Below, piece after piece: positions 32,220-61,900 of a stretch of DNA of 64,000 nt. Position 1 is the stretch's first letter. Every line of letters begins with the position of its first letter. Source of the DNA: Escherichia phage vB_EcoM_JNE01; sequence record OR670491; one strand, given 5' to 3'. The position numbers and the translations under genes were made by a program. The notes beneath the pieces were generated by a model. It worked only from the letters and a program-made list of their open reading frames with translations. It made no database searches and was not told where the DNA came from.

Positions 32220-32225
32220 ACGAAA

Positions 32226-32251
32226 GGGAGAACATATGTTCTCCCTTTTTT
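32226..32251. terminator. bidirectional terminator (palindrome GGGAGAACATATGTTCTCCC with A-run/T-run flanks)
   Basis: Perfect palindrome between the convergent thyA and fibre genes. Confidence 0.7.
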
Positions 32252-32252
32252 A

Positions 32253-34217
32253 TTATCTTAATGTTACCAATGTTCTTCCAGCAAACCTTACATCAGGTGA
32301 AGAAGGGATGCTAAAGACCACGTTAGTGCCGTTAAACGTCACGCTATCGACCTCAACTCGTGTATACACACCAGTACTCACTAGTTCCTGAATCTCTGCT
32401 GTAACGATGTTACTGGCTGTTACAGTGAGTGTATAGTAGTCACCACTAAGCACCCATGCAGACGCAGTGAATGGGTCAGTACGAACAGAACCAGAACCGA
32501 TTGGAACCCACTGTCCTTGTACTTTTTGCATTGATGTACGTTCGGTGTTGGAGTATGCAATCATACCATCTACACCTACACTGTTATCAATAGTAGCTAG
32601 TACTGGTAATTGAATACCATAACGGTTGAAACGTGTACGAATAGTACCATTATCAAGAATAGTTACGTCAGCGTAATTACCCATAGATACTTTTAAATCA
32701 GCACTTAGCAATTGAATAGTTGATTGGTTAGCTGTACTTTCTAAAGTAAAGATACCACTTTCCATTAGATTAAGATTTTTGAATCTATTACTTGCAGCAT
32801 TGAATACGGTATTAGCTGCAAAAGTACTTACACCATTGATAGTAACTGTATCAGTATTAGCATCACCTAAAACAGTATTACCTTTAACGTTCAGGTTACC
32901 ACTTGCTGTAATGTTAGTTACGTTCAAACCACCACTAAGAGTAGTTGCACCATCAACTGTCAAATCACCATGAAGTACTGTAATACCATTTCTAAATTCA
33001 GCTTGAACTTTGTTCATTGAACTTAGTGAGATAATATTACTATCACCACTAATACCTACGTTAGTATTAGTTGCATTATCAAAACGTATAGTTGGAGTAG
33101 CTGCTGGTGTTGTATTTGAATAGTAAAGTACTAATGCACCATTAGTTACACGTACACGTTCAGTTCCATTAGTCGTGAAACCAATAGTATCATCTTGTGG
33201 ATGGAAAATACCAGTATTCGGGTCAGACCATTTGGCTGGATCATTACCTGGGTTTGTTATTGGATCAAATGCGTTATTGTTAAATGACAATGCTGGAGCA
33301 GAGGCTGTACCATATGTTATACCAAAACGACCTGCACCTTTAGTTCCATCGTCATACATGGAATCACCATCACGACGAAGACCTTCAACTGCAATGTTAT
33401 CAAGCATAGTTTGAACAGTACTGGAGTTTTTAACGAACTCACGATTGTTTGCAATCATTACTGTATTATCATATAATACTGAAGCCGCTGCAATACTTGC
33501 TCTTGATTGACGCAAACGAATGTTTTTAGTATCAGTTATAATAATCCAGTCACCATCAGAAAGTGCGGTTTGGTTCATAGGTGAACCACTAGCAAATGCG
33601 TTTGTCAAATCAGTGTCTTGTGCAAGATTAACTAAACCAGTGTGACCTGTGGATGGAATTGAAGCAGTTACAATACGAGCAAATGCATAACTTACTAGTT
33701 TAGAACCAGCAACGATTGGATTGGAATCAACGTAATACATTATTTGAATCCAGTTCCCTTGACCAGTTGGGTTGGTAGGCGTAAATGTTACTGGACTTGT
33801 AGCTGGACTGTTTGCTTCAAAGTGAGCTTGTGCCGCGTCCATGATACCACGAACAACATAATAATCACCTTTAATACTTTCAGCAGGGGCTGGAAGTGGG
33901 CTTTGTGTTAGTGGAGGATCAATATCATCTTCAATAGGTGAATATGTACCAACGAATTGAAGACCACTGGTAATTGAATCAGGTAATTGTGAAGTTAATA
34001 GTTTACCATTGTTATCTAAGTTAGCAAATCTTCTATATGAAACCGTCCCATCTTCAAAATCAAGTACACCTTCAAACGCTTTCCATTCTTGGTTGTATCG
34101 AAACATACCAGACCTGATAACATCAGTTGTTTGTTTAGTTGGTGCTTTAGGTAATTCTAGAAAGGATTTACTATCTATAATTACACCGCCATCACCTCTA
34201 ATTCGATTTATACTCAT
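32253..34217 (-). CDS. tail fibre protein
   Basis: 654 aa, Thr/Ser/Asn/Gly-rich beta-type repeats (NGTERVRVTNGALVL); GAGGAAA SD. Confidence 0.55.
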   Translation of the reverse strand: MSINRIRGDGGVIIDSKSFLELPKAPTKQTTDVIRSGMFRYNQEWKAFEGVLDFEDGTVSYRRFANLDNNGKLLTSQLPDSITSGLQFVGTYSPIEDDIDPPLTQSPLPAPAESIKGDYYVVRGIMDAAQAHFEANSPATSPVTFTPTNPTGQGNWIQIMYYVDSNPIVAGSKLVSYAFARIVTASIPSTGHTGLVNLAQDTDLTNAFASGSPMNQTALSDGDWIIITDTKNIRLRQSRASIAAASVLYDNTVMIANNREFVKNSSTVQTMLDNIAVEGLRRDGDSMYDDGTKGAGRFGITYGTASAPALSFNNNAFDPITNPGNDPAKWSDPNTGIFHPQDDTIGFTTNGTERVRVTNGALVLYYSNTTPAATPTIRFDNATNTNVGISGDSNIISLSSMNKVQAEFRNGITVLHGDLTVDGATTLSGGLNVTNITASGNLNVKGNTVLGDANTDTVTINGVSTFAANTVFNAASNRFKNLNLMESGIFTLESTANQSTIQLLSADLKVSMGNYADVTILDNGTIRTRFNRYGIQLPVLATIDNSVGVDGMIAYSNTERTSMQKVQGQWVPIGSGSVRTDPFTASAWVLSGDYYTLTVTASNIVTAEIQELVSTGVYTRVEVDSVTFNGTNVVFSIPSSPDVRFAGRTLVTLR

Positions 34218-34308
34218 GTAATATTTCCTCAGAATAGATTTATATATTATGTATTTATTTTAGATAAAAGAAAAGGCCAACCATAGTTGACCTTAGAATA
34301 GTTATATA

Positions 34309-35091: not shown

Positions 35092-35173
35092 ATAAACCAC
35101 CTTATTTTATTTTTTTTTGAATTAGTATCGAAAAACCAGTACTGATCATTGTGACCAGTACTGGGGACATCAA

Positions 35174-38100
35174 TTATGAAGTACGTTGAGCAATAAACAA
35201 GTCAATAACGTTACTTACACCATCATATACTGCTTGGTAGATAGTAACACTGTTCGCTGCTAGGTTCTGTTCACCATCCACAATAGAGTAAGATGGGTCA
35301 GCAGTTAGTACACGGTTACCAGTTGCATCTTGCTTCGCATACATGAAGATAGATGCAGCTTTACCACCACCAATCAGGCCAGCAATTGGTGCTAGTGTGG
35401 TGTTCTGGTCTAGAGTGATAAAGTACACACTAGTAGAGCCATCAGGAGTCCATGTACCAGCCGGAGCAACAGTACTGGAAGTAACTTGTGATGGGATAAC
35501 ATCATACTTCTTAGTAGTTACAGAAGTAGTTACAAAGTTAGCTTCGTCAGTAGTGAATACACCAGCAACTTCAATACCTTTTTCGAAAGTAGCTTTCTCA
35601 ATGAAAGTACTTGTTCCGTTAACTGTGATAACATCTGCTGCTGCATCACCTAGTGTTACGCTACCAGTGGTAGTTAGTGCACCAGATATATTTACAGCCG
35701 CTAGGGTACTTGTACCAGTTACTGCTAGAGTTGAACCGATTGTTGCAGTGCCAGAAGTTGTTAGGTTAGTAACAGAAGCTTCTGCTAGTGTTGCTTTACC
35801 AGTTACACCTAGTGTACCACCAACAGTTGCTGCACCAGTTACGCCTAAAGTAGTTCCAACAGTTACTGCACCAGTGAAGGTTCCACCAACACCACTTACG
35901 TTACCACTGAACTCACCATCAACGCCTTTAACTTTACCAGTACTGGTGATTGCACCAGAACCTAAAGTACCAGTGATTGTCGCTGCTCCACCAACTGTTA
36001 AGTTACCAGTTGATTGCATTGAACCACCTTTAACTAGGTTAGTACTTGTTAGTGATTTAACGTTTACATCAGCATTTGATTGGTCAACGTTGGCATATAG
36101 AACACCACCAACTGTAAAGTTACCAGTAGTAACAACGTTACCGTTAACTGTTAAGTTGTTGTTTTGTGATCCAACTGCACCAAATGTACCAGAGTTTGCA
36201 ATAACTGCTGCGTCAGTTGAAATGTTACCAACTGCGGATAGAGTTGCAGAAGCTTCAATTGCATATGGTTCTAGTGTTTGACCACTTACGTCGATATCGG
36301 CGTTAATGCCACCTTCAACACGTAGTTTACCAGCAATAAAAGTATCAGGGAAAATCTGAACAGTTTCAGGTTGTTCACCAACTTTAACACCAACTACTAG
36401 GTTTGCACCAGTTTTAACTGTACCAGTTTCTAGTGAACCAGAAGTTACTTTGCCAGTTACTTTTGCATCAGCAGCTACAGTTAGTGCATCACCGGAAGCG
36501 GAGGACAATGCCAATGATGGAGCAGAAACAGCACCAGTTACACCTAAAGTGCCACCAACAGTTGCGTTACTTGTTACACCTAGTGTACCACCGAATGTAC
36601 CGTTTGTATCACTGTGGATAGCAGCAGAAGTAGACAAACTCTTCGCAACGATATCAGATGTTGTTAGGTCTAAACCACCAGCAGGAGTAAATGTACCGCT
36701 TACTGTTAGGTCATTAGTGAAAGATGAATTACCAGCCATAGTTAAACCAGCAGTACCAACAATACTTGTTGCAGAAACTGCACCAGTATCTAGTGAACCA
36801 GTTGTTGCTTTACCAGTTACACCTAAAGTATTACCTAAAGTAACAGCACCAGTTGTAGATAAAGTACCAGCTACAATTGCATTACCTTTAACATCAAGAC
36901 CAGTACCAGAAGCATTGGACAATGTTAGGGACGGAGCAGAAACTGCACCAGTTACACCTAGTGTACCAGCGATAGTTGAGTCACCACCAATAGTTGCCCC
37001 CGCAGTGCTCTTAATTGTGGTTGCCACGTCAAGGCTGTTTGCAGTAATATCAGAAGTAGATAGATCCAAACCACCCACTGGAGTGAATACACCGTTAACC
37101 GTTACAGCATCAGCAAATGTTGCAGCACCAGTTACACCTAGTGTACTACTAAATGTTCCAGATGTTGCAGAAACTGCACCAGTATCTAACGAACCAGTAG
37201 TTGCTTTACCTGTTACACCAAGAGTACCACCAACAGTTTGATTTCCGGTAACAGTAAGAGTCCCAGTTTGTGCATCAACAGTTGTGATTTTACCTGAACC
37301 ACTGATATCAGTAGTAGATACACCACCACTTAGAGTACTCAAACCAGTTGCTTTTAGGGTTGTCGCAACATCAAGACTGTTTGCTGTAATGTCTGCACCA
37401 CTTAGATCCAAACCACCTTCAGGAATAAATTCACCTTTAACAGTTAGTTTTTGAACTACTGAATCACCAGTTACGGTTAGAGCAGAAGAAGTTAAACCAC
37501 CGTTCAAAGTTGCTGCACCAGTAACACCAAGTGTACCACCGACAGCCGCATTAGAAGTTACTGAAGCGTTTTCTAGAGTTGCAGTACCGGAGATATTTGC
37601 ACCTTGTGCAGTGATACTACCAGTATCAACACGTACACCACCAGCTACAACTTGAATACCACCTGTATTAACAGTTAGTTTATTACCAACAGTTGCTGCA
37701 CCAGTTAGAGTGCTTGTACCAGCTACAGACAAGTTACCGGAAACGGCTGGGCTACCAGTTACATTACCAGTTGTTAGAACTAGATCAGCACCAACAGTAG
37801 TATTACCGACAGAAGCTAAAGTGTTTGCAGTTACATCAGAAGCAGATAGGTCAAATGTACCAGCTACTACCAAGTCACCACCGATATTTGCACCACCAGT
37901 AGTAGTGATTGATTTAGCACTAACATCAGTTGTTGCTAGGTCAATTGCACCTGGAGTTACAGTTCCGGTTACAGTTAAATCACCTGTTACTTTAGTGTTG
38001 CTTGCAATTTCCACACCAGTTTCGTTAGAAATGGTTGGAGTTACCAAGGAAACAGCAGTTGCTTGACCAGATACTGTTAGTGAAGTTCCAATTACTGCAT

Positions 38101-41100
38101 CTGCACTTGTGCGTAGACTTGTTAGAATTGATGGACCTTCAACAGATAGCTCAGTTGCATTAACTGCATTAATAGTTGCAGTAGTAGATTTAAGTACTGG
38201 AAGTACGTTAGCATTAACTAAGTCAGTACTTTGAATAATACCAGCAGAAGATAGTGATTTAACACTAACATCAGCAGCACTAAGATCAACAGTGCCAGCT
38301 ACTACTAAGTTACCACCAATGTTTGCACCTTCGGTTGTTGTAATAGATTTAGCACTAACATCAGTAGTGGTTAGGTCAATAGAACCTGGAGTTACGGAAC
38401 CAGTCACTACTAGATTACCAGTTACGGTAGTGTCGTTTTTAATTTCAACACCAGCAGCATTTGCAATTGATGGAGTAGTTAGTGAACCAACGGTAGCATT
38501 ACCAGTTACATCAAGAGTAGTACCCACAGATACTGCACCAGTAGCATCGAGTGAAGCTACATTAGATGCACCACTAACATTTAGTGCGGTTACATTTGCA
38601 GTTCCAACAGTTGCTGTGGTACTATTAAGTACTGGAAGTACGTTTGCATCAGTTGCGTTAGTAGAAGTTACAATACCTGGAGTAGTTAAAGATTTAACAC
38701 TAACGTCTGCTGCACTAAGATCAACTGTACCAGCTACTACTAAGTTGCCACCGATAGATGCACCAGCAGTTGTAGATATGGATTGAGCACTAACATCAGT
38801 CGTTGATAGATCAATTGCACCTGGGGTAAGTGTACCAGTGACAGTTACATTATCAGTAAAAGTAGTGTTACCGTTAATAGTTGGTGAAGTTAGAGTTCCA
38901 GTTGATAATGAACCAGTAGTTGCTGCACCAGTTAAATTCATAGAAGAACCAGCGATAGCTACACCTTCGATATTACCAGTTACTTTCAAAGAAGAACCAG
39001 AAATAGCTGCTGCACTAACGTTACCAGTTGCAGTGATTGCACCAGCACTTACATCGGCTAGGGTACTTGCACCAGCAACACTTAGGGTTGTGGTTACATC
39101 AACTTTATTAGGAGCAATATCAAGACCATCAACGTTAGCATCTGCTACAACACCAGTTGTAGTTCCAGTTACTACTAGGTCTTTAACTGTTACTGTTTGA
39201 CCAGTTACTGTCACATTCCCGCTAAATGCACCCGCTGCACCACTTACATCACCACTGAATGTACCGTTCACACCACTTACATTACCAGTAAATGTACCAT
39301 CAACACCGCTCACATTACCACTGAACTCACCACCAACGCCTTTTACGTTACCAGTACTGGTAATTGCTCCAGAGTTTAGTGCTCCAGTCACGTTAGCAGT
39401 TCCACCAACGAGTAAGTTAGCATTAATAGTTGCACCACCAGTTGATTCTAATGATGAAGATTTAATTTCACCAGCCGCAATAACGGAATTAGGTGTTAAA
39501 TCCTGACCACTCACATCAACTGTTAGACCAGTTACGACACCAGTGAAGTCTACATCATTAAGAATGGTTTTACCATTAACTTTTAGACGAGGTGTTGCTG
39601 GGCTTTGTGTTGAGTTACCTAGAATTTCTACATAATCTAATTTGTTTAGACCTTTACCTGTAATACCATAGGTCGCAAGAGACTCATCACCAAAAGTTGC
39701 AGTTTTTTGTACAGTAAGAGTTACCGGAGCCATAGATTCAGACTGGATTTCGTTCTGTAGTAGAACTGTTGGACGTTGACCTGCTGCGGAATAACCAAAA
39801 CCTAGTTTAACGTCAGCATTTGCAACGTTTTGACCAAGGGTAATGGCTTTAACAGTTGCAGTTGTGTTGTTACCAGTGATGTTTGCACCTAATGTAACTG
39901 CTCCGTTAAGACCAGTAGCACCACTTACGTTCAAACTGGTAGCCTGGATATCATCTAAATCAAATGTACCACCTAATGTTCCAGAAACATTGATGTTATT
40001 GAAGTTTGCAGTACCAGTACTTTCAATATTAGGTAATGTTGCAGTTCCAGTTACTTCTAAATCAGTGACCTTAGTTAGTCCTTTGGTTACTTCGAGTAAA
40101 GGAGTACTAGGATCTTGTGTTAAGTTACCACTAATAGTTACATAATCTAATTTGTTTAGACCTTTACTTGCGATACTATAGGTGGAAAGAGATTCATCAC
40201 CAAACGTCGCACTTTTTAGTACGTTTAGGTTAGTTGGTGACATTAATTCGGTTTGAATTTCGTTTTGTAGAACTACAGTTGGGCGAAGCCCTGCCGCTGA
40301 ATATGTAAAACTCAAGCGATCAGTACTACTTGCTGCGTTAGCACCCAATTTAATGTCTTTGAATGTCGCAGTTGTATTGATACCAGTGATGTTTGCACCT
40401 AATGTAACTGCTCCGTTAAGACCAGAAGCACCACTTACGTTCAATGAAGTTGCATTAATGTCATCAAGACTGAATGTACCACCAAGAACACCATTTATGT
40501 TAATATCATTGAAGTTAGCTGTACCAGTACTTTCAATATTAGGAATAGTAGCAGAACCAGTTACTTCGAAATCAGTTACTTTAGTTAAACCTTTAGTAAC
40601 TTCAAGTAAAGGAGTAGTTGGTGATTGAACTGTGTTACCACTAATAGATACATAATCTAATTTGTTTAGACCTTTACCTGTGATACCGTAAGTATCGAGA
40701 GACTCATCACCAAATGTTGCAGTTTTGAGTACGTTTAGGTTTGTTGGTGACATTAATTCAGATTGAATTTCGTTCTGTAGAACAACTGTAGGTCGTTGAC
40801 CTGATGCTGAATAGGTAAAACTCAAGCGATAAGTACTGCTTGCTGAGTTTGCACCCAATTTAATGTCTTTGAATGTCGCAGTACTATTGATACCAGTAAC
40901 GTTAGCACCAAATGTAACAGCACCTTGTAAACCAGAAGCACCACTTACGTTCAATGTAGTTGCATTAATGTCATCAAGGCTGAATGTACCGCCTAGTGTA
41001 CCACTAATATTAACATCTTTGAAGTTTGCTGTACCAGTGCCAGTGATAGTTTCACTAGAAATTGCAGTGATTGTTGCTTCATTTGCAGTTAATTTATCAA

Positions 41101-41536
41101 AAGCAGCAGTTGTGCCTACACCAGCAGTGATGTTACCATCAAATTGTGTAGTTCCGGTGACTTCTAATTGGTCAACTGTTGTGTTTTTAAGAACAGCAGA
41201 ACCAGCAGTTTGATTAATATCGTTGGCAAATGACGCAGTGCCGTTAAAAGATGCATTGGAGTTAACAGTTGCAGTATCAGAACCGACAACAGCATCACCA
41301 ATTACAGAATTACCTTTAATATCTACGCCACCATTAAGAGATGCTTTACCAGCTACGTCTAGGGTAGAAGTGATATTAGCAGTTGCTGCTTCAATTGCAG
41401 TAAATGTTGCATTTGCGAAAGAAACTGTACCATTTACGGTTACATTTTTCTCAAATACAGCATTACCTTTAACCAAAAGATCTTTATTTACCGTAGCACC
41501 ACCAGTAACATCTAGATCCGTCTTTATAGAGTACAT
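35174..41536 (-). CDS. giant repeat-rich tail fibre protein (2120 aa)
   Basis: T/S/G/N/V-rich; three tandem ~165-aa repeats near the N-terminus (LGGTFSLDDINAT ... GKGLNKLDYV); both termini near-identical to the next gene; AATGGAGGG SD. Confidence 0.7.
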   Translation of the reverse strand: MYSIKTDLDVTGGATVNKDLLVKGNAVFEKNVTVNGTVSFANATFTAIEAATANITSTLDVAGKASLNGGVDIKGNSVIGDAVVGSDTATVNSNASFNGTASFANDINQTAGSAVLKNTTVDQLEVTGTTQFDGNITAGVGTTAAFDKLTANEATITAISSETITGTGTANFKDVNISGTLGGTFSLDDINATTLNVSGASGLQGAVTFGANVTGINSTATFKDIKLGANSASSTYRLSFTYSASGQRPTVVLQNEIQSELMSPTNLNVLKTATFGDESLDTYGITGKGLNKLDYVSISGNTVQSPTTPLLEVTKGLTKVTDFEVTGSATIPNIESTGTANFNDININGVLGGTFSLDDINATSLNVSGASGLNGAVTLGANITGINTTATFKDIKLGANAASSTDRLSFTYSAAGLRPTVVLQNEIQTELMSPTNLNVLKSATFGDESLSTYSIASKGLNKLDYVTISGNLTQDPSTPLLEVTKGLTKVTDLEVTGTATLPNIESTGTANFNNINVSGTLGGTFDLDDIQATSLNVSGATGLNGAVTLGANITGNNTTATVKAITLGQNVANADVKLGFGYSAAGQRPTVLLQNEIQSESMAPVTLTVQKTATFGDESLATYGITGKGLNKLDYVEILGNSTQSPATPRLKVNGKTILNDVDFTGVVTGLTVDVSGQDLTPNSVIAAGEIKSSSLESTGGATINANLLVGGTANVTGALNSGAITSTGNVKGVGGEFSGNVSGVDGTFTGNVSGVNGTFSGDVSGAAGAFSGNVTVTGQTVTVKDLVVTGTTTGVVADANVDGLDIAPNKVDVTTTLSVAGASTLADVSAGAITATGNVSAAAISGSSLKVTGNIEGVAIAGSSMNLTGAATTGSLSTGTLTSPTINGNTTFTDNVTVTGTLTPGAIDLSTTDVSAQSISTTAGASIGGNLVVAGTVDLSAADVSVKSLTTPGIVTSTNATDANVLPVLNSTTATVGTANVTALNVSGASNVASLDATGAVSVGTTLDVTGNATVGSLTTPSIANAAGVEIKNDTTVTGNLVVTGSVTPGSIDLTTTDVSAKSITTTEGANIGGNLVVAGTVDLSAADVSVKSLSSAGIIQSTDLVNANVLPVLKSTTATINAVNATELSVEGPSILTSLRTSADAVIGTSLTVSGQATAVSLVTPTISNETGVEIASNTKVTGDLTVTGTVTPGAIDLATTDVSAKSITTTGGANIGGDLVVAGTFDLSASDVTANTLASVGNTTVGADLVLTTGNVTGSPAVSGNLSVAGTSTLTGAATVGNKLTVNTGGIQVVAGGVRVDTGSITAQGANISGTATLENASVTSNAAVGGTLGVTGAATLNGGLTSSALTVTGDSVVQKLTVKGEFIPEGGLDLSGADITANSLDVATTLKATGLSTLSGGVSTTDISGSGKITTVDAQTGTLTVTGNQTVGGTLGVTGKATTGSLDTGAVSATSGTFSSTLGVTGAATFADAVTVNGVFTPVGGLDLSTSDITANSLDVATTIKSTAGATIGGDSTIAGTLGVTGAVSAPSLTLSNASGTGLDVKGNAIVAGTLSTTGAVTLGNTLGVTGKATTGSLDTGAVSATSIVGTAGLTMAGNSSFTNDLTVSGTFTPAGGLDLTTSDIVAKSLSTSAAIHSDTNGTFGGTLGVTSNATVGGTLGVTGAVSAPSLALSSASGDALTVAADAKVTGKVTSGSLETGTVKTGANLVVGVKVGEQPETVQIFPDTFIAGKLRVEGGINADIDVSGQTLEPYAIEASATLSAVGNISTDAAVIANSGTFGAVGSQNNNLTVNGNVVTTGNFTVGGVLYANVDQSNADVNVKSLTSTNLVKGGSMQSTGNLTVGGAATITGTLGSGAITSTGKVKGVDGEFSGNVSGVGGTFTGAVTVGTTLGVTGAATVGGTLGVTGKATLAEASVTNLTTSGTATIGSTLAVTGTSTLAAVNISGALTTTGSVTLGDAAADVITVNGTSTFIEKATFEKGIEVAGVFTTDEANFVTTSVTTKKYDVIPSQVTSSTVAPAGTWTPDGSTSVYFITLDQNTTLAPIAGLIGGGKAASIFMYAKQDATGNRVLTADPSYSIVDGEQNLAANSVTIYQAVYDGVSNVIDLFIAQRTS
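39540..41040 (-). repeat. three tandem ~500-bp intragenic repeats in giant fibre gene 1
   Basis: Repeated DNA such as CATAATCTAATTTGTTTAGACCTTTACCTG near 39641, 40141 and 40661; boundaries approximate. Confidence 0.55.
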
Positions 41537-41570
41537 ATAGTTCCCTCCATTTTGGGTTATTAAAATACCA

Positions 41571-41594
41571 TGTTTATGTTTATATATTTAGTTG
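41571..41594 (-). promoter_or_regulatory. candidate late-promoter motif (minus sense AACTAAATATATAAACAT)
   Basis: Nearly the same motif upstream of both giant fibre genes. Confidence 0.35.
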
Positions 41595-41629
41595 AATTAA
41601 TTGTTTTGGAACTCTCAAAGATAATTATT

Positions 41630-41674
41630 TAGGGAAAAGAAAAAGCCAACACGAGGTTGGCTTTCTTTTATTTG
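41630..41674 (-). terminator. terminator hairpin (AGCCAAC/GTTGGCT) between the giant fibre genes
   Basis: Stem-loop with U-rich flanks on both strands. Confidence 0.55.
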
Positions 41675-46561: not shown

Positions 46562-46603
46562 TTAGTTCCCTCCATTTGAATGATTATAAACATAACCATT
46601 CTC

Positions 46604-46633: not shown

Positions 46634-46666
46634 AAAAAAACCAGACCTGATACTAAAGGTCTGGTT
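46634..46666 (-). terminator. terminator hairpin (ACCAGACCT/AGGTCTGGT)
   Basis: 9-bp stem downstream of the 46674 gene stop with A/T runs. Confidence 0.6.
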
Positions 46667-49741: not shown

Positions 49742-50869
49742 TTAGATGTTATCGCTAATTGGTTGTATTGGTGATTGCCATGCCAAAGTACAGATAATTT
49801 TAATTTGACCATAAGCACTGTTGTTTACAGAGTCGTTGAAAATACAAGAGATAATTTCATCTTTATCAGAAACAGTGTGGTTAACTTCGTTAACAATAAA
49901 ACGCATTTTACGGTTAATGTCAAAATAATCAACTGGAGCAATTACAGTACCCCCAATATCTTCTTGTGCTTCACCACCGAAACGAACAAACATTTCGTTA
50001 ACTGGTAAATCATAAGCTTGTTGTACATCAACATCGATATTAGTAACTAGGTATCCAGCAGGACATGTACCAATAACTAGAACGGCGTTAGTCCATGAAT
50101 GATCAATAGTGTTTACAATAACCAAGGAATCTTTACCTGGAGCACCTGTAGCACCTGGTAGACCTTGTTCACCTTGAATACCCTGTTTACCACGGAATTC
50201 AATACCAGTACTCCACTCTTTGGAAGGCGGGGTTGTGGTGTTTACAATATCAACATAGTATAGTTTACCATCTGTGGTATTATAGAAGCAGTAGTCTTCA
50301 GGAAGGTCAGTAATACTAGGGAATACATCACCAGTACTATCAATATGGAATCGTCCACGTAGACCTTGTGGGCCACGGAATTGTACACCATCACTCCAAG
50401 TTGCAGTTACTGATTGATAGAAATAAACTTTACCATCAGTTGTATTATAGAATGTATAGTTGTTTACGAGGTTAGTAGTTGGGAATGTATCACCAGAGCT
50501 ATCAATATGGAATGATTTACCAGCTTCACCAGTATCACCTTTACCAAATTCTACAACGTTCCAAGTACTATTACTGTCAGTTGCGGCGTTGGTTTTGAAA
50601 TATAGCTTACTAGTTCCGTTTGCAAGACTAAGATAGCACCAGCCAAGTTCTTCACCTACTCGGAATGATTCATCTGGGATTTCAAAACCTATCTCGTTTG
50701 GATAAAAGTTTTTACCATTTGTACCATCTCTACCAACAACAAGACCTAGATCTTGAATTGTGTTGTCAGCGTAAGTTACGATCAAATGTCCAGCAGAGTT
50801 GATAACTAAACTCTTTATGCCGGAATTATTGCATGAACTACTAGTCCCATTATTAAATGAAATTGTCAT
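49742..50869 (-). CDS. tail fibre protein with short collagen-like G-x-y runs
   Basis: Start set to internal ATG with AAAGGAAA SD; motifs GPQGLRG and GKQGIQGEQGLPGATGAPG. Confidence 0.5.
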   Translation of the reverse strand: MTISFNNGTSSSCNNSGIKSLVINSAGHLIVTYADNTIQDLGLVVGRDGTNGKNFYPNEIGFEIPDESFRVGEELGWCYLSLANGTSKLYFKTNAATDSNSTWNVVEFGKGDTGEAGKSFHIDSSGDTFPTTNLVNNYTFYNTTDGKVYFYQSVTATWSDGVQFRGPQGLRGRFHIDSTGDVFPSITDLPEDYCFYNTTDGKLYYVDIVNTTTPPSKEWSTGIEFRGKQGIQGEQGLPGATGAPGKDSLVIVNTIDHSWTNAVLVIGTCPAGYLVTNIDVDVQQAYDLPVNEMFVRFGGEAQEDIGGTVIAPVDYFDINRKMRFIVNEVNHTVSDKDEIISCIFNDSVNNSAYGQIKIICTLAWQSPIQPISDNI

Positions 50870-50981
50870 TATTATTTCCTTTTTATAAGTGAATCGTAAT
50901 ATACCAATATTTATCAGTACAAAATACATTTCGACATCATTAATAAATAAATGAAAGTTCACTACTAAAAAGGGCTTAACA

Positions 50982-52101: not shown

Positions 52102-52114
52102 TAAGAGGTAGAAT

Positions 52115-53215
52115 ATGAATATTAACTATACAATTTATCGTAGTGATGGTACAGTTTATGCTACCATCCCTAATAACGTAATTCTTGGACCGAATCAACC
52201 TGGTTCGAACCCAGTACCTCTAAACTTGGTCGGTCGTAACAAAGTTGGTTACGGTCAAGCATGGAATGAAAACTTTTTACATTTAGTTGAGCATTTTAGT
52301 GGTAGTGTTGCTCCACGTGGTAACGTTAAAGGTCAAATCTGGTACAGAAACACTGGTGCTACTGGTGAGTTGCTAATTTCTCTTCTTGACAACGCCAGAC
52401 AACCAGAAGATACTGTTACGGAAGCAGAATGGGCTTCTATCCCAATGATTAGTGTTTTTAACACTATTCCTGATGGTGAAAACAGTGTTATGGGACGTAT
52501 GGTTTTAACCAGCAATGGTGATTCCCTCCGTGTCCTAATGAAAAACAAAGAATGGCGTGAAATCCAGACATCCAGACCAGAAAACAAAGAGTACTCAACT
52601 CTTTTAGATATCAACTATGATACTGGTAAGAAATATATCGAATTTACTCAAAGTGCCAGTACTAAACCACTAGCTTACTTTAATATGGGTGGTACTTCTC
52701 AAGTTGACGAGGATAACTGGACTACTTTCACTAATGGTACTGGTGTATTTGAATTTGGTAGCAACTATTTCTACGAATTAAAAATTATGATTCGTGAAGT
52801 AAGTGATGCAACTGGTTCAGTGGTGTCTTTACCATATAATTCCAAAACATTTATGATTAAAGGTCAATTCTATGTTGATAACCAAGGTACATTTGTTCCT
52901 GGTTCAGTTGGTGCAAGCTCTATCCCTGATCCACGTCGAATTACTCAACTAGAATCAATTAAAGACGTTATTACAAGCAGCCGCCCTAACTGGGATGTTA
53001 ATATTGTAATCAACGGTGTAGATTCAACGATTCCTAATCCAAATGGCGTTACTAAAGCTGATTATGAGAACTGGGTAATCAATTCATTGAACTCTAACAA
53101 AAACTTAGGCTTCAGGATTGATGGTTCAATCAGTAATCTGGTTGCTGGGGAATCTGTTAAGCTTCAGGCTTCAGTACTATTGAATATTACTGGTATCCCA
53201 CTAATTGGTGTATAA
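52115..53215 (+). CDS. hypothetical structural protein
   Basis: 366-aa ORF. Confidence 0.45.
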   Translation: MNINYTIYRSDGTVYATIPNNVILGPNQPGSNPVPLNLVGRNKVGYGQAWNENFLHLVEHFSGSVAPRGNVKGQIWYRNTGATGELLISLLDNARQPEDTVTEAEWASIPMISVFNTIPDGENSVMGRMVLTSNGDSLRVLMKNKEWREIQTSRPENKEYSTLLDINYDTGKKYIEFTQSASTKPLAYFNMGGTSQVDEDNWTTFTNGTGVFEFGSNYFYELKIMIREVSDATGSVVSLPYNSKTFMIKGQFYVDNQGTFVPGSVGASSIPDPRRITQLESIKDVITSSRPNWDVNIVINGVDSTIPNPNGVTKADYENWVINSLNSNKNLGFRIDGSISNLVAGESVKLQASVLLNITGIPLIGV

Positions 53216-53248
53216 AAGAAAAGGAGAGCATTAAGCTCTCCTTTTTTA
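53216..53248. terminator. bidirectional terminator (GGAGAGC/GCTCTCC), same family as 32226 and 58954
   Basis: AAAAGGAGAGCATTAAGCTCTCCTTTTTTATTA between convergent genes. Confidence 0.7.
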
Positions 53249-53713
53249 TTAATAACGATAAGGTAAACTGTTGACAAACTGCTTACCTTGATTTATACTT
53301 TCCCACAATGAAAGGAAATCTTTCATCAAATTAGTGTTAAGTAAAGTGTTTTTAGCTCCTGGGTGAAGCGGCTTAGGCCACGAACCAATTTTTACCCATG
53401 CATATCCTGAACTCTCATGGTTTAGTATTGGAACAAATTCATTTTCAACAACAACAACAAAAGAATAATATCTGAACTTACCATTCTTAGTACAAAATAC
53501 GTCGAATGGAATAATATCAATAATATCAGGTATAGAATCACCCAACTCTTCTTTCATTTCACGATGTAAACCTTGAATCGGAGTTTCCTTATGTTCAAGC
53601 TTCCCACCAACAAACGCCCAGTTATTTGAATATGTACTTCTTTCAGATCGTAGATTCAACATCATATGACCAGTGCTTTTCGATAAAAATATAGCACCTA
53701 CTGCTTCATTCAT
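53249..53713 (-). CDS. Nudix hydrolase
   Basis: Nudix box GGKLEHKETPIQGLHREMKEELG; AAGGAGGTG SD. Confidence 0.7.
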   Translation of the reverse strand: MNEAVGAIFLSKSTGHMMLNLRSERSTYSNNWAFVGGKLEHKETPIQGLHREMKEELGDSIPDIIDIIPFDVFCTKNGKFRYYSFVVVVENEFVPILNHESSGYAWVKIGSWPKPLHPGAKNTLLNTNLMKDFLSLWESINQGKQFVNSLPYRY

Positions 53714-53725
53714 AACAACACCTCC

Positions 53726-56556: not shown

Positions 56557-56599
56557 TGTTCGTCTCCAAAATAAATCGGGTATATCTCTATTTACCTTG

Positions 56600-56627
56600 T
56601 TGACAACAGCAAATAATGTGATATAAT
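56600..56627 (+). promoter_or_regulatory. sigma70 promoter (TTGACA, 16-nt spacer, TGaTATAAT) with ATGTGAT/ATCACAT inverted repeat
   Basis: Same GTGATATAATG core as P1/P2; drives the ClpA-like gene. Confidence 0.5.
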
Positions 56628-56667
56628 GTTTATTAATTAGAGTGAGTTTAATCACATAGGAGAACAC

Positions 56668-58953
56668 ATGAACCTGACACAACTATTCAAGAAAAGCGAC
56701 GAACTGGCAACCTCTATGGGTCATACTTTTTTGACAATTGACCATGTGAGTGCTACAGTACTGACAGTTGATAGCATTGTTGACGTATTCAAGTCGATGG
56801 ACATTGACGCTGCAAAGCTTCATGCACGTTTGATTGATTATTTGAAAAACAACCCAGTTCCACCAGCACCAAAAAGTACTTTAGATGATGACTCGAACCG
56901 TACTTCACTTCTAGTGAATCGCGTGATGCAGGAACTGTCTAAAAAAGCAGTGATTGAACAGCTAAATCGTGATGATTTCTCCATTGATGCATATTTTGTT
57001 CTGTTTGAATGTTTGTCCTTCCCAAATACTGCATTCGAAGCAGTACTGAAAGAAGAAGGGGTTTCTTGTACTGAAGTAGCACGTACACTACAGAAACATG
57101 TAGAAGATATTGATACTGGCATCAACCTAAAAAGTATTAGCGACGAACCAACAGGGGACAAAAAAGTGGCTCAACAGCAACCAGCATCTAAGCAGAAAAG
57201 TTTGGAAGATTACACTACCAACCTTACCGCACTAGCGAAGGAAGGTAAACTCGACCCAATGATTGGTCGTCAAAAAGAGCTTGCTTCTCTCGTTGAGACT
57301 CTTGCTCGTAAAACTAAGAAGAACGCAATCCTAACTGGTGAAGCTGGCGTAGGTAAAACTCAAATCGTTGATGGTTTGGCACAAGCAATCGCAAATGGTG
57401 ATGTTCCAGAGCATCTAAAAGATGTGGAACTACTGTCTCTGAACGTTGGTGCACTAACTGCTGGTACAAAATACCGTGGTGAGTTTGAAGAACGCATTGA
57501 CAATCTTCTAAAAGAACTGAAGAAACGCGAAAACACCATCGTCTTCATCGATGAAATCCATATCATGGTTGGTGCTGGTTCTGCGAGCAACGGTTCAATG
57601 GATATGAGCAACATGCTCAAACCTGCTCTATCTCGTGGTGAGATTCGTGTCATCGGTGCAACCACTTATGACGAATATCGTAAAAACATCGAGAAAGACA
57701 GTGCTCTATCACGTCGTTTTATGAAAATTGATGTTGTTGAACCAACAGTTGAAGAAACTCGTGAAATTATCAACGGTCTACAAAAGACTTATGAGAAATT
57801 CCACAATGTAACCTTCACTAAAGGTGCGATGGATGCAGTTATTACACTAAGTGATAAGTTCCTGAAGAACAAACACTTCCCTGACAAAGCAATCGACCTA
57901 ATGGATGCGTCAGCAGCGAAGAAACGTTCTCGTGACAATGGTAATGAAATTACTGTTGGTGATATCCAAGAAGTTGTTGCTGGAATCGCTAACCTAGACC
58001 TGAACGTAGTTGCTTGTACTGAAAGTGAGCGTATGCGTAGTCTTCCTGATGCACTTCGTTCTCGTGTATATGGTCAAGAAGAAGCAGTAACTAAATTGGT
58101 TGATAACGTGATGGTTGCTCGTGCAGGTCTACGTGAATCTTCCAGTGTTCAGGGTGCATTCATGTTTGTTGGACCATCTGGTACTGGTAAAACTGAAATC
58201 ACCAAAGCGTTGGCTGATGCAACTGGTTCTAAACTGATTCGTTTCGATATGTCTGAGTTCTCTCAAGAACACACTGTGTCTAAACTGATTGGTTCACCTC
58301 CAGGTTATGTTGGTCACGATTCTGGTAATGGCCTACTACTAGACCAGATTGAGCAATACCCGAATGCAGTGCTGCTACTTGATGAAATCGAGAAAGCAGA
58401 TCGTAAAGTACTGTTGACTTTCCTTCAAGTTCTTGATGAAGGTCGTCTAACTGGTTCTCAAGGTAAGACTGTTTACTTCAACAACGTAACTGTTGTTATG
58501 ACAACTAACCTTGGTGCAGCAGACTCTACAAAACGTAGTATCGGTATGAGTGGTAGTGATACAGCACAGGATAAAGCGATTAAAGCTTTCCTACCGCCTG
58601 AATTCATCAACCGTATCGACAGTATCGTTACATTCAATGATTTGTCTTCTGATGCAATTCAGAGTATCATTGATAAATTCATGGGTAGTTTGAACGAACA
58701 AGTTAAAGACCGTGGTGTTAAGGTTTCTCTAACTAAAGCGGCTCGTGAATGGTTGGCGAAGAATGGCGTTAAGAACGGAATGGGTGCTCGTCCAATGAAA
58801 CGTACCATTGAACAGAATATCCGTGTTCCTCTGGCGAAAGAAATGCTTTGTGGTTCACTGGTTGATGGCGGTTCAGTAACATTTGATGTTATCAACGGTT
58901 CACTAGGCATTAAGCCAAAGCGTGTTAAAGCAGCAGATAAAGTAGAAGCGTAA
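56668..58953 (+). CDS. clpA: ClpA-like AAA+ unfoldase (N-domain, D1, D2, ClpP-docking loop)
   Basis: D1 GEAGVGKT / VFIDEIH / ALSRRF; D2 GPSGTGKT / LLLDEIEKAD / PPEFINRID; IGM tripeptide where ClpA has IGL; 761 aa. Confidence 0.85.
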   Translation: MNLTQLFKKSDELATSMGHTFLTIDHVSATVLTVDSIVDVFKSMDIDAAKLHARLIDYLKNNPVPPAPKSTLDDDSNRTSLLVNRVMQELSKKAVIEQLNRDDFSIDAYFVLFECLSFPNTAFEAVLKEEGVSCTEVARTLQKHVEDIDTGINLKSISDEPTGDKKVAQQQPASKQKSLEDYTTNLTALAKEGKLDPMIGRQKELASLVETLARKTKKNAILTGEAGVGKTQIVDGLAQAIANGDVPEHLKDVELLSLNVGALTAGTKYRGEFEERIDNLLKELKKRENTIVFIDEIHIMVGAGSASNGSMDMSNMLKPALSRGEIRVIGATTYDEYRKNIEKDSALSRRFMKIDVVEPTVEETREIINGLQKTYEKFHNVTFTKGAMDAVITLSDKFLKNKHFPDKAIDLMDASAAKKRSRDNGNEITVGDIQEVVAGIANLDLNVVACTESERMRSLPDALRSRVYGQEEAVTKLVDNVMVARAGLRESSSVQGAFMFVGPSGTGKTEITKALADATGSKLIRFDMSEFSQEHTVSKLIGSPPGYVGHDSGNGLLLDQIEQYPNAVLLLDEIEKADRKVLLTFLQVLDEGRLTGSQGKTVYFNNVTVVMTTNLGAADSTKRSIGMSGSDTAQDKAIKAFLPPEFINRIDSIVTFNDLSSDAIQSIIDKFMGSLNEQVKDRGVKVSLTKAAREWLAKNGVKNGMGARPMKRTIEQNIRVPLAKEMLCGSLVDGGSVTFDVINGSLGIKPKRVKAADKVEA

Positions 58954-58987
58954 AAAAGAAAAGGAGAGCATATGCTCTCCTTTTTTA
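58954..58987. terminator. bidirectional terminator (palindrome GGAGAGCATATGCTCTCC)
   Basis: Perfect palindrome with A-run/T-run flanks. Confidence 0.7.
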
Positions 58988-61900
58988 TTAACTAAATTTT
59001 AATAAACGACCTACATCCAATCCACTAATTGTCAAACTGTCTGTATAAACACTCAATTCAATTGGCAAATAGTTCTCACCATATTTCTTGAACTTATCAA
59101 TGTTTCCTAAGTTCATGCCAGTAAATGTATATGTCTCATCTAGTTTGAAATCATGTTCCGCACTGTACATCGCACCACGTAGTAAGTTATTTGCATTACG
59201 TACTTGGACTTTCTCGTAACCCAATGAAATAACATCATTCAGTGAAGCTGCTGCACCCGATAGAACATTATTGGTAACACTGTATGGGCTTACCGATGAA
59301 GGTTGTGAAACATAGGTCATATGTTCATTCTCAATCATCGTAATGCTTGTCACAGTACTACCAACAGCGGTAATATAAGCATTTGATACTAGTGGGTAGT
59401 TATACACCCAAACCCCGTCAGAATTACGTGTAGGTTCTAGTAAACCAGCATCGTATTCAAACACGTTAATCTCAACGCTATCAACCATTCTTGTTCTTAC
59501 TAGTTCACTTAGAACACCAGAACCAGTAATAGGTAGATTATAGCCGTTATCGATTGTAACCCCGTCCACAACGAAAATTTCATTTGACACTAACCATAGG
59601 TCAATATCACTTGAAGTTATTCCGTCATTATATGAACCGTTATCTAATGTCGTGTCATAAAATACTTCGTATTTCATTGCATCAATTGCATAGTTTCGGT
59701 TTTCTTCGTATAATTTAACTCCATTAACAACAAATTCAGGATCTGCGAATGTTCTAATACGAACTAGGTTCAGTGCTAGAGGCATTGCATGTTCACCAGC
59801 TTTGTTAGTAGTGATGTTATCAAACATCAGTACTGCACCAGTTGAATCTAGTAATTCAACAGTACCATTGGCTGTATTATTTCGTACAGTGAATAGTTTA
59901 GGTGTAGTTCCTGTTTTGATTTTAGATACACTCAAGATGGTTTCCCATGTATCGTTTTGGTATCTTACAAAATCCTCACCATCAGTGGTGAAAATCATAA
60001 CTTTATCCCCATTAGCTAATGAATTATCTACTAACTTCATTTGACTTTGAGTTTGCACTGATTTCACTTGATAGAAGTATTTTTCATCATACTTATCTGT
60101 TGTTGCACTAATATCGTTAGATACTTTTGCGTATGAAGGAATACTAATAATTGCTTGTCCATAGTTGTAAGGATTGATTAGAACCATACCTTCAACATGT
60201 AAGCGACTATTGTCACGTAGCTGAACTTGAGCAGCAGTATCAAAGCCATATCCATCAATCGTTACTCTGATTTGACCGATATCACGTTCCGCTGGGTTCA
60301 CATCACGAATATCAATGATATAAGGATCAACCTCATCGTCTTGTACTGACCATTTCATGGTAGCTGTTTGTGATTCTAGTGCTAGGTTATCGAAAGAGTT
60401 CATATCATTATAATATTTCGCACCTTCAATACCGTCTAGTATTTGTTTATAATCAGAATACATTGGATTGTTAACATCTTGCGGTAAATCATCCAAATTG
60501 ATTTCAGCTAAACTTACAGCCTGACCAGTTGTGATGTAGATATCTTCGATGAAATCGTCAATACTTTGATTACGTGGAATACTAACAAACGTATCATTTA
60601 CTTTAGCATATACATATTTTCTAGGAATCATAGTGAATGCATAGTTTTGTACAGAATTATTACTTAGTACTTCTTCGGCAATTTCATAATTATTGGAAGC
60701 ATCCTTGTTAAACAAGTTACGCATACCAGTTAATACATGAACTGCGTCGGTGTAATATCTTCTTACTTCAATTACAACTTCTTCACCATCTTCATCTTGA
60801 ATTGTTTGTTCTTCCATGAACTTATACATGTAAACGCCGTATTCAACTTCTAGCTCAATTCTAACTTCCTCGTCACTGAACGCAGGATTTGCAGTTTTAA
60901 TCAAATCAACATATTTCTTATACAATTCACTGGATACTTCATAATAACCTAAGTTATAATCAGTACTGCTTGCGAAACCAAACGGTAGACGAGTGCTTGG
61001 GTTGTCAGTGAAGGTCACTCCACTAAAACCACATCCAACTTCATCATGAATAACTTCATTACTAGCACCAGTGTACAGCTTCAATCGGTTAGAAAGAGTG
61101 TTGTACTGAACATAATGTTTAACATCGTCAAACACTTCGTTATTTGTCGCTTCTGCATAAATGCGGTGAAGATTTTGGGTAAATTCTTCAGTTAGTGCTA
61201 AGTTATCAGAATTTTCTTTATACCAATCGTTAATTGCTTTAGCAGCACCCATTGTAATATTCATACTTGGATATAGAATTTGCATTTGGTATGCAACTTG
61301 TAAATCTAAAGTTTCTGAATTATTTTCAGGGAAGGTATAAATGAATCTTTGTAACTCAAAATCACTGACTACATCTTTTTCGTTACTTTGATACTTGTTG
61401 TTAACTGCATTTAGTACATCTAGGCTTGCCAAATCTTCATTTGGTTTACACTGAATGTTGTCATAATGCATAATCACATCAATTTCTTGGAAACGTCTAT
61501 TTGGTGTTACAAAATCGCTTGGCAATGAACCAATTTGTTCCCATCTCTGAGTAACATCACTAAACTGTGCGTATTCATAGTCCCAAATATCTTTTTCAGT
61601 TTTAACCCAAGAACCATCAACAAGAATATAGCCATTTGGATCGAGGTCGTTGCATAATCCTTTGATAACATCATCATCTGATGTTTTCTGTTCAATCTGA
61701 GAACGAATCTTAGTTCTGTACGGTTTAACTTCTTCAAAGTACTCGACAATTTGATTAATCAAGTTATCGTTTGAATAGTTCTGTACAAGAGATTGCTCTA
61801 GACCAATAATATAAATGTAAGATGTTTTGAATACCCAGTCCACAACACCCTGTTCAACGTGAACATACTTAACCATATCAAATACTATTGTACTTTGATG

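What the first reader, a model, noticed from the sequence alone, without database searches (positions are those of the whole stretch)
32220..58990. Three near-identical palindromic bidirectional terminators at convergent gene junctions
AAAGGGAGAACATATGTTCTCCCTTTTTTATTA (32226), AAAGGAGAGCATTAAGCTCTCCTTTTTTATTA (53216) and AAAGGAGAGCATATGCTCTCCTTTTTTATTA (58954) share one about 32-nt architecture with A-run/T-run flanks. This suggests a reused genome-wide terminator that may also be a recombination or protein-binding site.
Basis: seen in the sequence. Interest (0 to 1): 0.35.

Follow-up and report, generated by a model that had tools for sequence, protein, structure and literature searches.

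The report
Ordinary bidirectional phage transcription terminators
The three look-alike palindromes are standard two-way transcription stop signals filling the ~33-base gaps between tail-to-tail genes of a jumbo E. coli phage, a well-known kind of element whose similar sequence reflects a common design rather than a special reused or mobile site.

Summary
The three sequences are real. Each fills the whole 33-34 nt spacer between two convergent stop codons, at the only three convergent junctions in the window. The window is a 99%-identical relative of jumbo Escherichia phage Turkey5 (Rak2/121Q group).

Each folds into a perfect 11-bp hairpin with an A-run and a T-run. Folding energy is -16.6 to -18.8 kcal/mol on both strands, and no shuffle does as well.

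All nine well-supported convergent junctions of Turkey5 carry this architecture. The same junctions in Turkey3, G17, UE-S1, Muenster, CBB and GAP32 keep a perfect hairpin with U-tracts. Their stem cores and loops change by compensated substitutions. Two exceptions are junction 2 in CBB and GAP32, where there is no spacer. G17, UE-S1 and Muenster already annotate terminators at most of these junctions.

The exact GGAGAGC palindrome occurs in at least 120 unrelated viral contigs, against 6 for an arm-swapped control. Sequence sharing is therefore mostly convergent design, not one copied element.

No evidence supports a recombination or protein-binding role. One oddity remains: junction 2 has the junction-3 core only in this lineage.

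Verdict: canonical bidirectional intrinsic terminators, already known, low interest. Transcript 3' ends are untested.

The parts
32220..32252 (.). J1: the whole 33-nt spacer between the thymidylate synthase gene (+, stop 32217-32219) and a 654-aa structural/tail-fibre-region gene (-, stop 32253-32255). Hairpin AAAGGGAGAAC (32223-32233), loop ATAT (32234-32237), GTTCTCCCTTT (32238-32248). U-tract on the + transcript is UUUUUUAU (from 32246). On the - transcript it is UUUCGUUU, the weakest of the six.
   Evidence: dG -17.8 (+) and -16.6 (-) kcal/mol; z -5.9 and -6.4.
53216..53248 (.). J2: the whole 33-nt spacer between a virion structural gene (+, stop 53213-53215) and the NUDIX hydrolase gene (-, stop 53249-53251). 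Hairpin AAAAGGAGAGC (53219-53229), loop ATTAA (53230-53234), GCTCTCCTTTT (53235-53245). U-tracts are UUUUUUAU (+) and UUUUCUUU (-).
   Evidence: dG -18.7 and -17.1 kcal/mol. The five relatives that have a spacer here carry GGAGCC instead.
58954..58987 (.). J3: the whole 34-nt spacer between the ClpA-like ATPase gene (+, 56668-58953) and a >1,660-aa virion gene (-, stop 58988-58990). Hairpin AAAAGGAGAGC (58959-58969), loop ATAT (58970-58973), GCTCTCCTTTT (58974-58984). U-tracts are UUUUUUAU (+) and UUUUCUUU (-).
   Evidence: dG -18.8 and -16.6 kcal/mol. The GGAGAGC core is conserved in the E. coli and Klebsiella clades, with five different loops.
56600..56627 (+). Consensus sigma-70 promoter (TTGACA, 16-nt spacer, TATAAT, with TG) upstream of the ClpA-like gene. 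It defines a roughly 2.35-kb monocistronic unit that would end at J3.
   Evidence: 12 of 12 match. Consensus match only; not tested for function.

Best explanation
These are canonical bidirectional intrinsic (Rho-independent) terminators of a Rak2/121Q-type jumbo coliphage, which is transcribed by the host RNA polymerase.

Mechanism. RNA made from either strand folds into the same 11-13 bp hairpin. The hairpin has a 7-8 bp G/A-rich 5' arm, a C/U-rich 3' arm, A:U extensions and a 4-5 nt loop. It is followed immediately by a U-rich tract, because the A-run on one strand is the U-run on the other. The polymerase pauses on the weak rU:dA hybrid, the hairpin forms in the RNA exit channel, and the transcript is released.

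Consequences. One 33-34 nt spacer closes two converging transcription units. It prevents antisense read-through into essential virion genes and leaves a 3' hairpin that protects the mRNA. On the minus strand the U-tracts are interrupted (UUUUCUUU; UUUCGUUU at J1), so termination is probably somewhat weaker there and may be helped by head-on polymerase collisions.

Why the three look alike. Terminator design is narrow: an A-run, a GG-start purine 5' arm, a pyrimidine 3' arm and a U-run. That is sufficient to explain most of the resemblance.

What is shown and what is inferred. Shown: structure, position, conservation with compensation, and recurrence in unrelated phages. Inferred: actual termination, its efficiency in each direction, and host-polymerase dependence in this particular phage.
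For: - All three hairpins sit between convergent stop codons and are the only convergent junctions in the window.
- They are stable on both strands, with z of -5.4 or lower and 0 of 200 shuffles folding as well.
- They are the top hits of the terminator scan.
- In the 99%-identical complete genome Turkey5, all nine well-supported convergent junctions carry a perfect palindromic hairpin with an A-run and a T-run.
- Of the two remaining convergent junctions, one has overlapping genes. The other has a dubious 37-codon ORF and a minus-strand terminator-like hairpin followed by a T-run.
- All 24 orthologous junction sequences examined, from four junctions (J1-J3 plus J4) and nine relatives, keep a perfect 9-16 bp hairpin of -15 to -23 kcal/mol. 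U-tracts have at least 6 of 8 U in both directions. Cores and loops vary.
- On 13 aligned hairpins, 132 of 132 cells pair. Four of 11 pairs show double-sided changes and none shows a one-sided change.
- G17 (ARNold), UE-S1 and Muenster annotate terminators at most of these junctions; Muenster does so on both strands for J1 and J2.
- Literature: an A-tract plus U-tract hairpin between convergent genes is the canonical bidirectional terminator, and the phage example LUZ7 T50 is experimentally validated (PMC10204088; PMC12207403).
- Literature: related jumbo phages use host RNA polymerase with phage sigma factors (PMC7318152; PMC5259590).
- A 12/12 sigma-70 promoter drives the unit that ends at J3.
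Against: - No transcript 3'-end data exist for this phage or, as far as my searches found, for any Rak2/121Q-type phage.
- Minus-direction U-tracts are interrupted, and J1's is poor.
- Each hairpin starts only 3-7 nt after a stop codon, so a terminating ribosome could delay folding (inference).
- Work on E. coli shows that some bidirectional terminators at convergent genes are weak on their own and need polymerase collisions (bioRxiv 10.1101/2022.10.23.513370).
Confidence: 0.87

Rival explanations
1. The hairpins work mainly in one direction (the + strand, with a clean U6 tract). In the other direction they act only as pause or collision sites and as 3'-end stabilisers. Minus-strand transcripts would then be ended by head-on polymerase collisions or by processing back to the hairpin.
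For: Minus-strand U-tracts are interrupted: UUUCGUUU at J1 and UUUUCUUU at J2 and J3. E. coli bidirectional terminators can be weak unidirectionally and rely on collisions. Most phage terminators tested were monodirectional.
Against: At least 6 of 8 U in the minus direction is conserved at all orthologous sites. Minus-strand hairpin energies are nearly as good as plus-strand ones. In relatives the better tract is sometimes on the other strand, for example at J4 and at J2 of UE-S1.
Confidence: 0.1
2. The shared sequence marks a dispersed recombination element: a PeSL-like linker, or short-patch gene conversion between terminators. On this view J2, J3 and J4 are copies of one another, and the palindromes mediate module exchange or inversion.
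For: J2 carries the GGAGAGC core only in this lineage; the five relatives that have a spacer there carry GGAGCC. J2 and J3 share 18 + 18 identical bases 5.7 kb apart. T4-type phages recombine at repeated promoter/stem-loop cassettes and need under 50 bp of homology (PMC2839356). Inverting the J2-J3 segment would keep both junctions convergent (inference).
Against: Identity does not extend beyond the spacer. The A-run and T-run flanks of J2 are ancestral to that site. Gene order and orientation across J1-J3 are identical in all six relatives. The same palindrome arises in at least 120 unrelated viral contigs, so independent origin is easy. There is no adjacent promoter at J1 or J3, no target-site duplication and no associated recombinase. 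There are only three copies per 351 kb.
Confidence: 0.05
3. The palindromes are double-stranded DNA sites for a dimeric protein (an operator, a nuclease or packaging signal, or a cruciform target) rather than RNA signals.
For: They are perfect DNA palindromes. Two have a palindromic CATATG centre.
Against: Centres and cores are not conserved among orthologues: loops include ATAT, AAAT, TAT, TAA, TTTTAT, ATT and ACAC, and seven core variants occur, while pairing is always kept. They occur strictly at gene 3' ends, never at promoters. The arm-swapped palindrome would be equally good as a DNA dyad, yet it is at least 20-fold rarer in viral DNA. That is a strand-specific, RNA-level asymmetry.
Confidence: 0.02

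Closest known systems
Canonical bidirectional intrinsic terminators between convergent genes (E. coli convergent pairs in Ju et al. 2019 and Wang et al. 2023; phage LUZ7 terminator T50)
   Same: GC-containing hairpin flanked by an A-tract and a U-tract, placed between convergent genes and readable as a terminator on both strands. LUZ7 T50 has exactly this description and gave 97-99% antisense (inverse-orientation) termination in three hosts (PMC10204088). [quoted passage not shown]
   Different: Nothing structural. Here the function is only predicted. The spacers are unusually tight: the terminator is the entire 33-34 nt gap between two stop codons.
Predicted terminators annotated at orthologous junctions of Escherichia phages vB_EcoM_G17 (MK327931) and UE-S1 (ON568341) and Klebsiella phage Muenster (MT708547)
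   Same: Same gene junctions: thyA/structural, structural/NUDIX and ClpA-like/large virion gene. Same hairpin type. At J3, where the Muenster record itself lists no terminator feature, the hairpin core GGAGAGC is still the same in all three relatives.
   Different: J2 has core GGAGCC in those phages and GGAGAGC here. Loops differ. The closest record, Turkey5, carries no terminator annotation.
PeSLs (promoter-early stem-loops) of T4-type phages
   Same: Short repeated intergenic stem-loops that terminate transcription in a large myovirus. PeSLs were shown to be sites of homologous exchange (PMC2839356 and PMC4122927).
   Different: PeSLs are roughly 100-bp composites with a strong sigma-70 promoter, an AT-rich region and a Shine-Dalgarno sequence upstream of an ORFan in hyperplastic regions. 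The three elements here have no room for a promoter, sit between two stop codons in the conserved virion module, and show no rearrangement. PeSL-like composites do seem to exist elsewhere in this phage (see the items noticed in passing).
REP/BIME-type intergenic palindromes of enterobacteria (from general knowledge, not tested against a model)
   Same: Short imperfect palindromes often found after genes, including between convergent genes. They can stabilise upstream mRNA.
   Different: REPs are high-copy, have a conserved family-specific head sequence, lack A-run/U-run flanks and are linked to RAYT transposases. Here there are three copies, canonical terminator flanks and no such gene. Rfam found nothing in the window.

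Membership tests
Intrinsic (Rho-independent) terminator | Stable GC-containing RNA hairpin | tested here: met
   Perfect 11-bp stems with 5 G-C pairs; -16.6 to -18.8 kcal/mol; z of -5.4 or lower; 0 of 200 shuffles fold as well.
Intrinsic (Rho-independent) terminator | U-rich tract of 7-9 nt immediately 3' of the hairpin | tested here: met
   Plus strand: UUUUUUAU at all three sites. Minus strand: UUUUCUUU at J2 and J3, and UUUCGUUU at J1, which is weaker.
Intrinsic (Rho-independent) terminator | Located at the end of a transcription unit, downstream of a stop codon | tested here: met
   The hairpins start 3-7 nt after the + stop codons and end 7 nt before the - stop codons.
Intrinsic (Rho-independent) terminator | Transcript 3' ends or RNA release at the U-tract | not testable with these tools
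   No transcriptome of this phage or of a Rak2/121Q-type phage was found.
Bidirectional intrinsic terminator | An A-tract upstream that mirrors the U-tract, so that the reverse strand also reads as hairpin plus U-tract | tested here: met
   A-runs of 3-4 within AAGAAAA or ACGAAA; both strands fold.
Bidirectional intrinsic terminator | Placed between convergent genes | tested here: met
   All three convergent junctions of the window. All nine well-supported convergent junctions of the Turkey5 genome.
Bidirectional intrinsic terminator | Structure, rather than sequence, conserved among orthologues | tested here: met
   24 of 24 orthologous sequences keep a perfect hairpin. 132 of 132 cells pair; 4 of 11 pairs change on both sides and none on one side. 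Caveat: few independent events, and the alignment was made from trimmed hairpins.
Bidirectional intrinsic terminator | Measured termination in both orientations | not testable with these tools
   Needs a reporter assay, in vitro transcription or 3'-end sequencing.
PeSL (promoter-early stem-loop) recombination cassette | Strong sigma-70 promoter, AT-rich region and Shine-Dalgarno sequence joined to the stem-loop, upstream of an ORF | tested here: not met
   The spacers are 33-34 nt between two stop codons. No promoter-like site lies within 100 nt of J1 or J3. An 11/12 match at 53271-53299 near J2 lies inside the NUDIX coding sequence. Its conserved hexamers coincide with the conserved amino-acid motifs ESI and FVNSL.
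PeSL (promoter-early stem-loop) recombination cassette | Indels or rearrangements between relatives that begin or end at the element | tested here: not met
   Gene order and orientation across J1-J3 are identical in G17, Turkey3, UE-S1, Muenster, CBB and GAP32. Alignments with the 121Q group run straight through J1.
Dispersed repeat or mobile element (MITE/REP-like) | Many copies sharing sequence beyond what function demands, with flanking identity or target duplications | tested here: not met
   Three copies of the GGAGAGC palindrome in 351 kb. Identity stops at the stop codons. The same palindrome occurs in at least 120 unrelated viral contigs with different loops and flanks.

The most novel reading that the evidence does not exclude
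The J2 terminator core was overwritten in this lineage by a copy of the J3/J4-type core, through short-patch gene conversion between palindromic terminators. Identical bidirectional terminators 5.7 kb apart would then act as neutral recombination linkers: the segment they bracket could invert or be exchanged without disturbing transcription. This would be a PeSL-like shuffling mechanism acting inside the conserved virion module of Rak2-type jumbo phages.
Probability: 0.06. Interest if true: 0.3.

Novelty: already known. Interest (0 to 1): 0.1.

Why it matters
This matters little beyond annotation. It gives three confident transcription-unit boundaries in a poorly annotated jumbo phage. It also yields compact (about 35 nt), perfectly symmetric candidate bidirectional terminators that could serve as synthetic-biology parts.

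The side result is of modest general interest. Purine-5'-arm palindromes outnumber their arm-swapped twins by at least 20 to 1 across viral DNA. That asymmetry explains why unrelated terminators converge on AAAGGAG...CTCCTTT. It also warns against reading such similarity as homology or mobility.

Tried and rejected
- Rfam, all families at gathering thresholds, on the window: no match.
- T4-type late promoter TATAAATA, searched to define the converging units: zero copies in the window.
- Small ORFs. The CATATG loop places an ATG 5 nt after the SD-like GGAG of the 5' arm. This was rejected because the loop is not conserved, the ATG is buried in a stable hairpin, and the ORFs are 7 codons (J3) or antisense to a structural gene (J1).
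- Promoter-like 11/12 site at 53271-53299, next to J2, as a PeSL-like partner. Its conservation is explained by conserved NUDIX residues.
- Wider sampling of J2 through the search for related loci with the NUDIX protein: it returned only 121Q.
- Search for transcriptome or 3'-end data on Rak2/121Q-type phages: none found.
- Within-genome purine bias of terminator 5' arms is only moderate: 66% for bidirectional and 56% for unidirectional hairpins. Two convergent junctions use pyrimidine-rich or mixed cores, GCCTCC and GCCAGTAC. The design rule is therefore a tendency, not a law.


Full report
**What is there**

The three quoted strings are present. Each occupies essentially the whole gap between two stop codons that face each other:
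- J1: 32220-32252, 33 nt.
- J2: 53216-53248, 33 nt.
- J3: 58954-58987, 34 nt.

The ORF map shows strand switches from + to - only at these three places in the 64-kb window. Each spacer has four parts:
- an A-rich run;
- an 11-bp perfect stem, AAAGGGAGAAC at J1 and AAAAGGAGAGC at J2 and J3;
- a 4-5 nt loop, ATAT, ATTAA and ATAT respectively;
- the complementary arm running into TTTTTT, then one A, then the TTA that is the reverse-strand stop codon.

J2 and J3 differ only in the loop. J1 has a different, one-pair-longer core.

**Is it more than chance?**

- AAAGGRGARC occurs 4 times against 0.24 expected.
- Each spacer folds at -16.6 to -18.8 kcal/mol on both strands. Z-scores are -5.4 to -6.4, and none of 200 dinucleotide shuffles folds as well.
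- The three sites are the top or near-top hits of the terminator scan.

**Where the window comes from**

The window is 98.6-99.6% identical to Escherichia phage Turkey5 (PQ471516, 351,311 bp). Turkey5 is a jumbo myovirus of the Rak2/121Q group. The exception is a mosaic patch at about 5.9-8.3 kb.

The flanking genes are:
- J1: thymidylate synthase against a structural gene.
- J2: a virion structural gene against the NUDIX hydrolase.
- J3: a ClpA-like ATPase against a roughly 3,300-aa virion protein.

I assembled the whole Turkey5 genome and listed every perfect inverted repeat of at least 8 bp with a loop of 3-8 nt.

- Repeats of at least 11 bp number 14, against 0.4 per simulated genome.
- All nine well-supported convergent junctions carry a perfect palindromic hairpin with an A-run and a T-run. 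They lie at record positions 79095, 140047 (J1), 161044 (J2), 166784 (J3), 191421, 212719 (called J4 below), 243427, 297887 and 330007.
- Of the two remaining convergent junctions, one is a 14-nt gene overlap. The other follows a dubious 37-codon ORF and still has a minus-strand terminator-like hairpin followed by a T-run.
- The GGAGAGC palindrome itself occurs only three times, at J2, J3 and J4.
- Seven of the nine cores are variations on GG(G)AG. The other two are GCCTCC and GCCAGTAC.

What is used genome-wide is therefore the architecture, not one sequence.

**Orthologous junctions**

I read the same junctions in Turkey3, G17, UE-S1, Muenster (Klebsiella), CBB (Pectobacterium) and GAP32 (Cronobacter). 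For J4 I used fEgEco12, 121Q, Muenster, Munch and GAP32.

All 24 sequences keep a perfect 9-16 bp hairpin of -15 to -23 kcal/mol on both strands, with U-tracts of at least 6 of 8 U both ways. The cores wander:

| Junction | Cores seen |
|---|---|
| J1 | GGGAGAAC, GGGAGAC, GGGAGC, GGAGCC |
| J2 | GGAGAGC here; GGAGCC in the five relatives that have a spacer; no spacer in CBB and GAP32 (3 nt and 1 nt) |
| J3 | GGAGAGC in the E. coli and Klebsiella clades, with loops ATAT, AAAT, TAT, TAA and TTTTAT; GGGAGCC in CBB and GAP32 |
| J4 | GGAGAGC, GGAGAATC, GGAGAAC |

Every change in one arm is matched in the other. On 13 aligned hairpins, 132 of 132 cells pair. Four of 11 pairs show double-sided changes, none shows a one-sided change, and 0 of 500 shuffles reach this. 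Two caveats apply: there are few independent events, and the alignment was built from trimmed hairpins.

Selection therefore acts on the hairpin and its flanking runs, not on a particular sequence or loop. The CATATG centre is not conserved.

The GenBank records of G17 (ARNold), UE-S1 and Muenster already annotate 'terminator' at most of these junctions. Muenster does so on both strands for J1 and J2, and lists none at J3.

**Is the shared sequence homology or convergence?**

The hits have these properties:
- contigs of 4-350 kb;
- G+C of 26-56%;
- more than 25 different loops;
- unrelated flanks;
- 51 of 122 sites between apparent convergent ORFs, and 56 after one ORF.

The arm-swapped palindrome of identical composition and pairing, AAAGCTCTCC-N3-6-GGAGAGCTTT, gave 6. 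The J1-type palindrome gave 22, against 0 for its swap.

This exact terminator is thus reached again and again in unrelated phages. The strong strand asymmetry (purine 5' arm, pyrimidine 3' arm) is an RNA-level property, which a double-stranded protein site would not show.

My inference for the bias has two parts. All-purine and all-pyrimidine arms cannot misfold within themselves. A pyrimidine-rich 3' arm also leaves a weaker RNA:DNA hybrid for the hairpin to displace. The bias is only moderate among this genome's own terminators.

**How it most likely works**

Related jumbo phages rely on host RNA polymerase redirected by phage sigma factors (PMC7318152; PMC5259590). A 12/12 sigma-70 promoter sits upstream of the ClpA-like gene, whose transcript would end at J3.

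Transcripts arriving from either side fold the same hairpin in front of a U-tract, pause and are released. This is the textbook intrinsic mechanism. The A-tract/U-tract symmetry is the recognised mark of bidirectional terminators (PMC12207403), and a phage example, LUZ7 T50, is experimentally validated (PMC10204088).

Minus-strand U-tracts are interrupted, so that direction may be weaker. Head-on polymerase collisions may help it, as shown for E. coli convergent pairs (bioRxiv 10.1101/2022.10.23.513370).

Termination itself is inferred. I found no 3'-end data for any phage of this group.

**The recombination or protein-binding idea**

PeSLs of T4-type phages show that repeated stem-loop cassettes can be recombination linkers (PMC2839356 and PMC4122927). 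PeSLs, however, are roughly 100-bp promoter-containing composites in hyperplastic regions. Here:
- there is no promoter at J1 or J3;
- the promoter-like match near J2 lies in conserved NUDIX codons;
- identity stops at the stop codons;
- gene order across the junctions is the same in every relative.

One fact is left over. J2 carries the J3/J4 core only in this lineage. Short-patch conversion from J3 or J4 would explain it. So would a few compensated mutations within a very small design space. With only one genome in the lineage the two cannot be separated, and I give the recombination reading about 5%.

**Verdict**

These are ordinary bidirectional intrinsic terminators. They are not a special reused element, and there is no support for the extra roles proposed. 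The kind is already known, and orthologous sites are already annotated in relatives. Interest is low.

Noticed in passing
Outside the window: Turkey5 record 600-20,000 (L002 656-19,973): About 17 copies of a repeated hairpin, 'TTTACATCAA GGGGAGAA nnn TTCTCCCC ACTAA..AGGA', lie just upstream of small + strand early-region ORFs. None has a T-run. They look like a repeated 5'-UTR or promoter-associated stem-loop cassette (PeSL-like), not terminators.
   Followed up: no
window 5924-8308: A mosaic patch relative to Turkey5. Window 6111-7591 is only 78.5% identical; it carries the LysM + phage-lysozyme endolysin ORF 6675-7628. About 7592-8308 (ORF 7678-8310, 210 aa, no Pfam hit) has no counterpart in Turkey5. 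The rest of the window is 98.6-99.1% identical.
   Followed up: partly
window 8629-8684: A 12/12 consensus sigma-70 promoter (8629-8657) abuts a terminator-like hairpin, AAAGGGACAG..CTGTCCCTTT (8658-8684). This promoter plus stem-loop composite resembles T4-type PeSLs. It lies about 320 nt downstream of the mosaic patch.
   Followed up: no
window 26567-26594 and 26659-26686: Two tandem 12/12 consensus extended -10 sigma-70 promoters lie in the 313-nt gap 26543-26855, ahead of the 443-aa ORF at 26856.
   Followed up: no
window 53271-53299 (+): An 11/12 sigma-70-like match lies 25 nt downstream of J2, antisense within the 3' end of the NUDIX gene. Its hexamers are conserved in E. coli and Klebsiella relatives while the spacer varies. 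They coincide with the conserved residues ESI and FVNSL, and CBB and GAP32 use other codons. It is probably a coding constraint rather than an antisense promoter.
   Followed up: partly
whole window: The T4 late-promoter octamer TATAAATA is absent: 0 copies against 6.5 +/- 2.5 expected from shuffles. The divergent region 50869-50981 contains AATAAATAAAT, which resembles the ATAAATA late motif reported for CBB and GAP32.
   Followed up: no
Outside the window: Turkey5 record 330,000-345,800 (L008): An array of about 12 paralogous RCC1/HERC1-like minus-strand genes is separated by a repeated hairpin, AA(A/T)GCCAGTAC ttga GTACTGGC(A/T)TT. Here terminators were evidently duplicated along with their genes.
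   Followed up: no
window 34273-34294, 35136-35164, 41640-41666, 46639-46666 (-): Further terminator-like hairpins lie between the co-directional giant tail-fibre-region genes of the minus-strand block that ends at J1. Those at 41640-41666 and 46639-46666 also score on the + strand although no + gene converges there.
   Followed up: no
window 39477-41552 and 44738-46577: The two giant minus-strand genes (35174-41536, 2,120 aa; 41675-46561, 1,628 aa) share internal segments at 75-84% identity. These may be paralogous or repeated tail-fibre modules.
   Followed up: no
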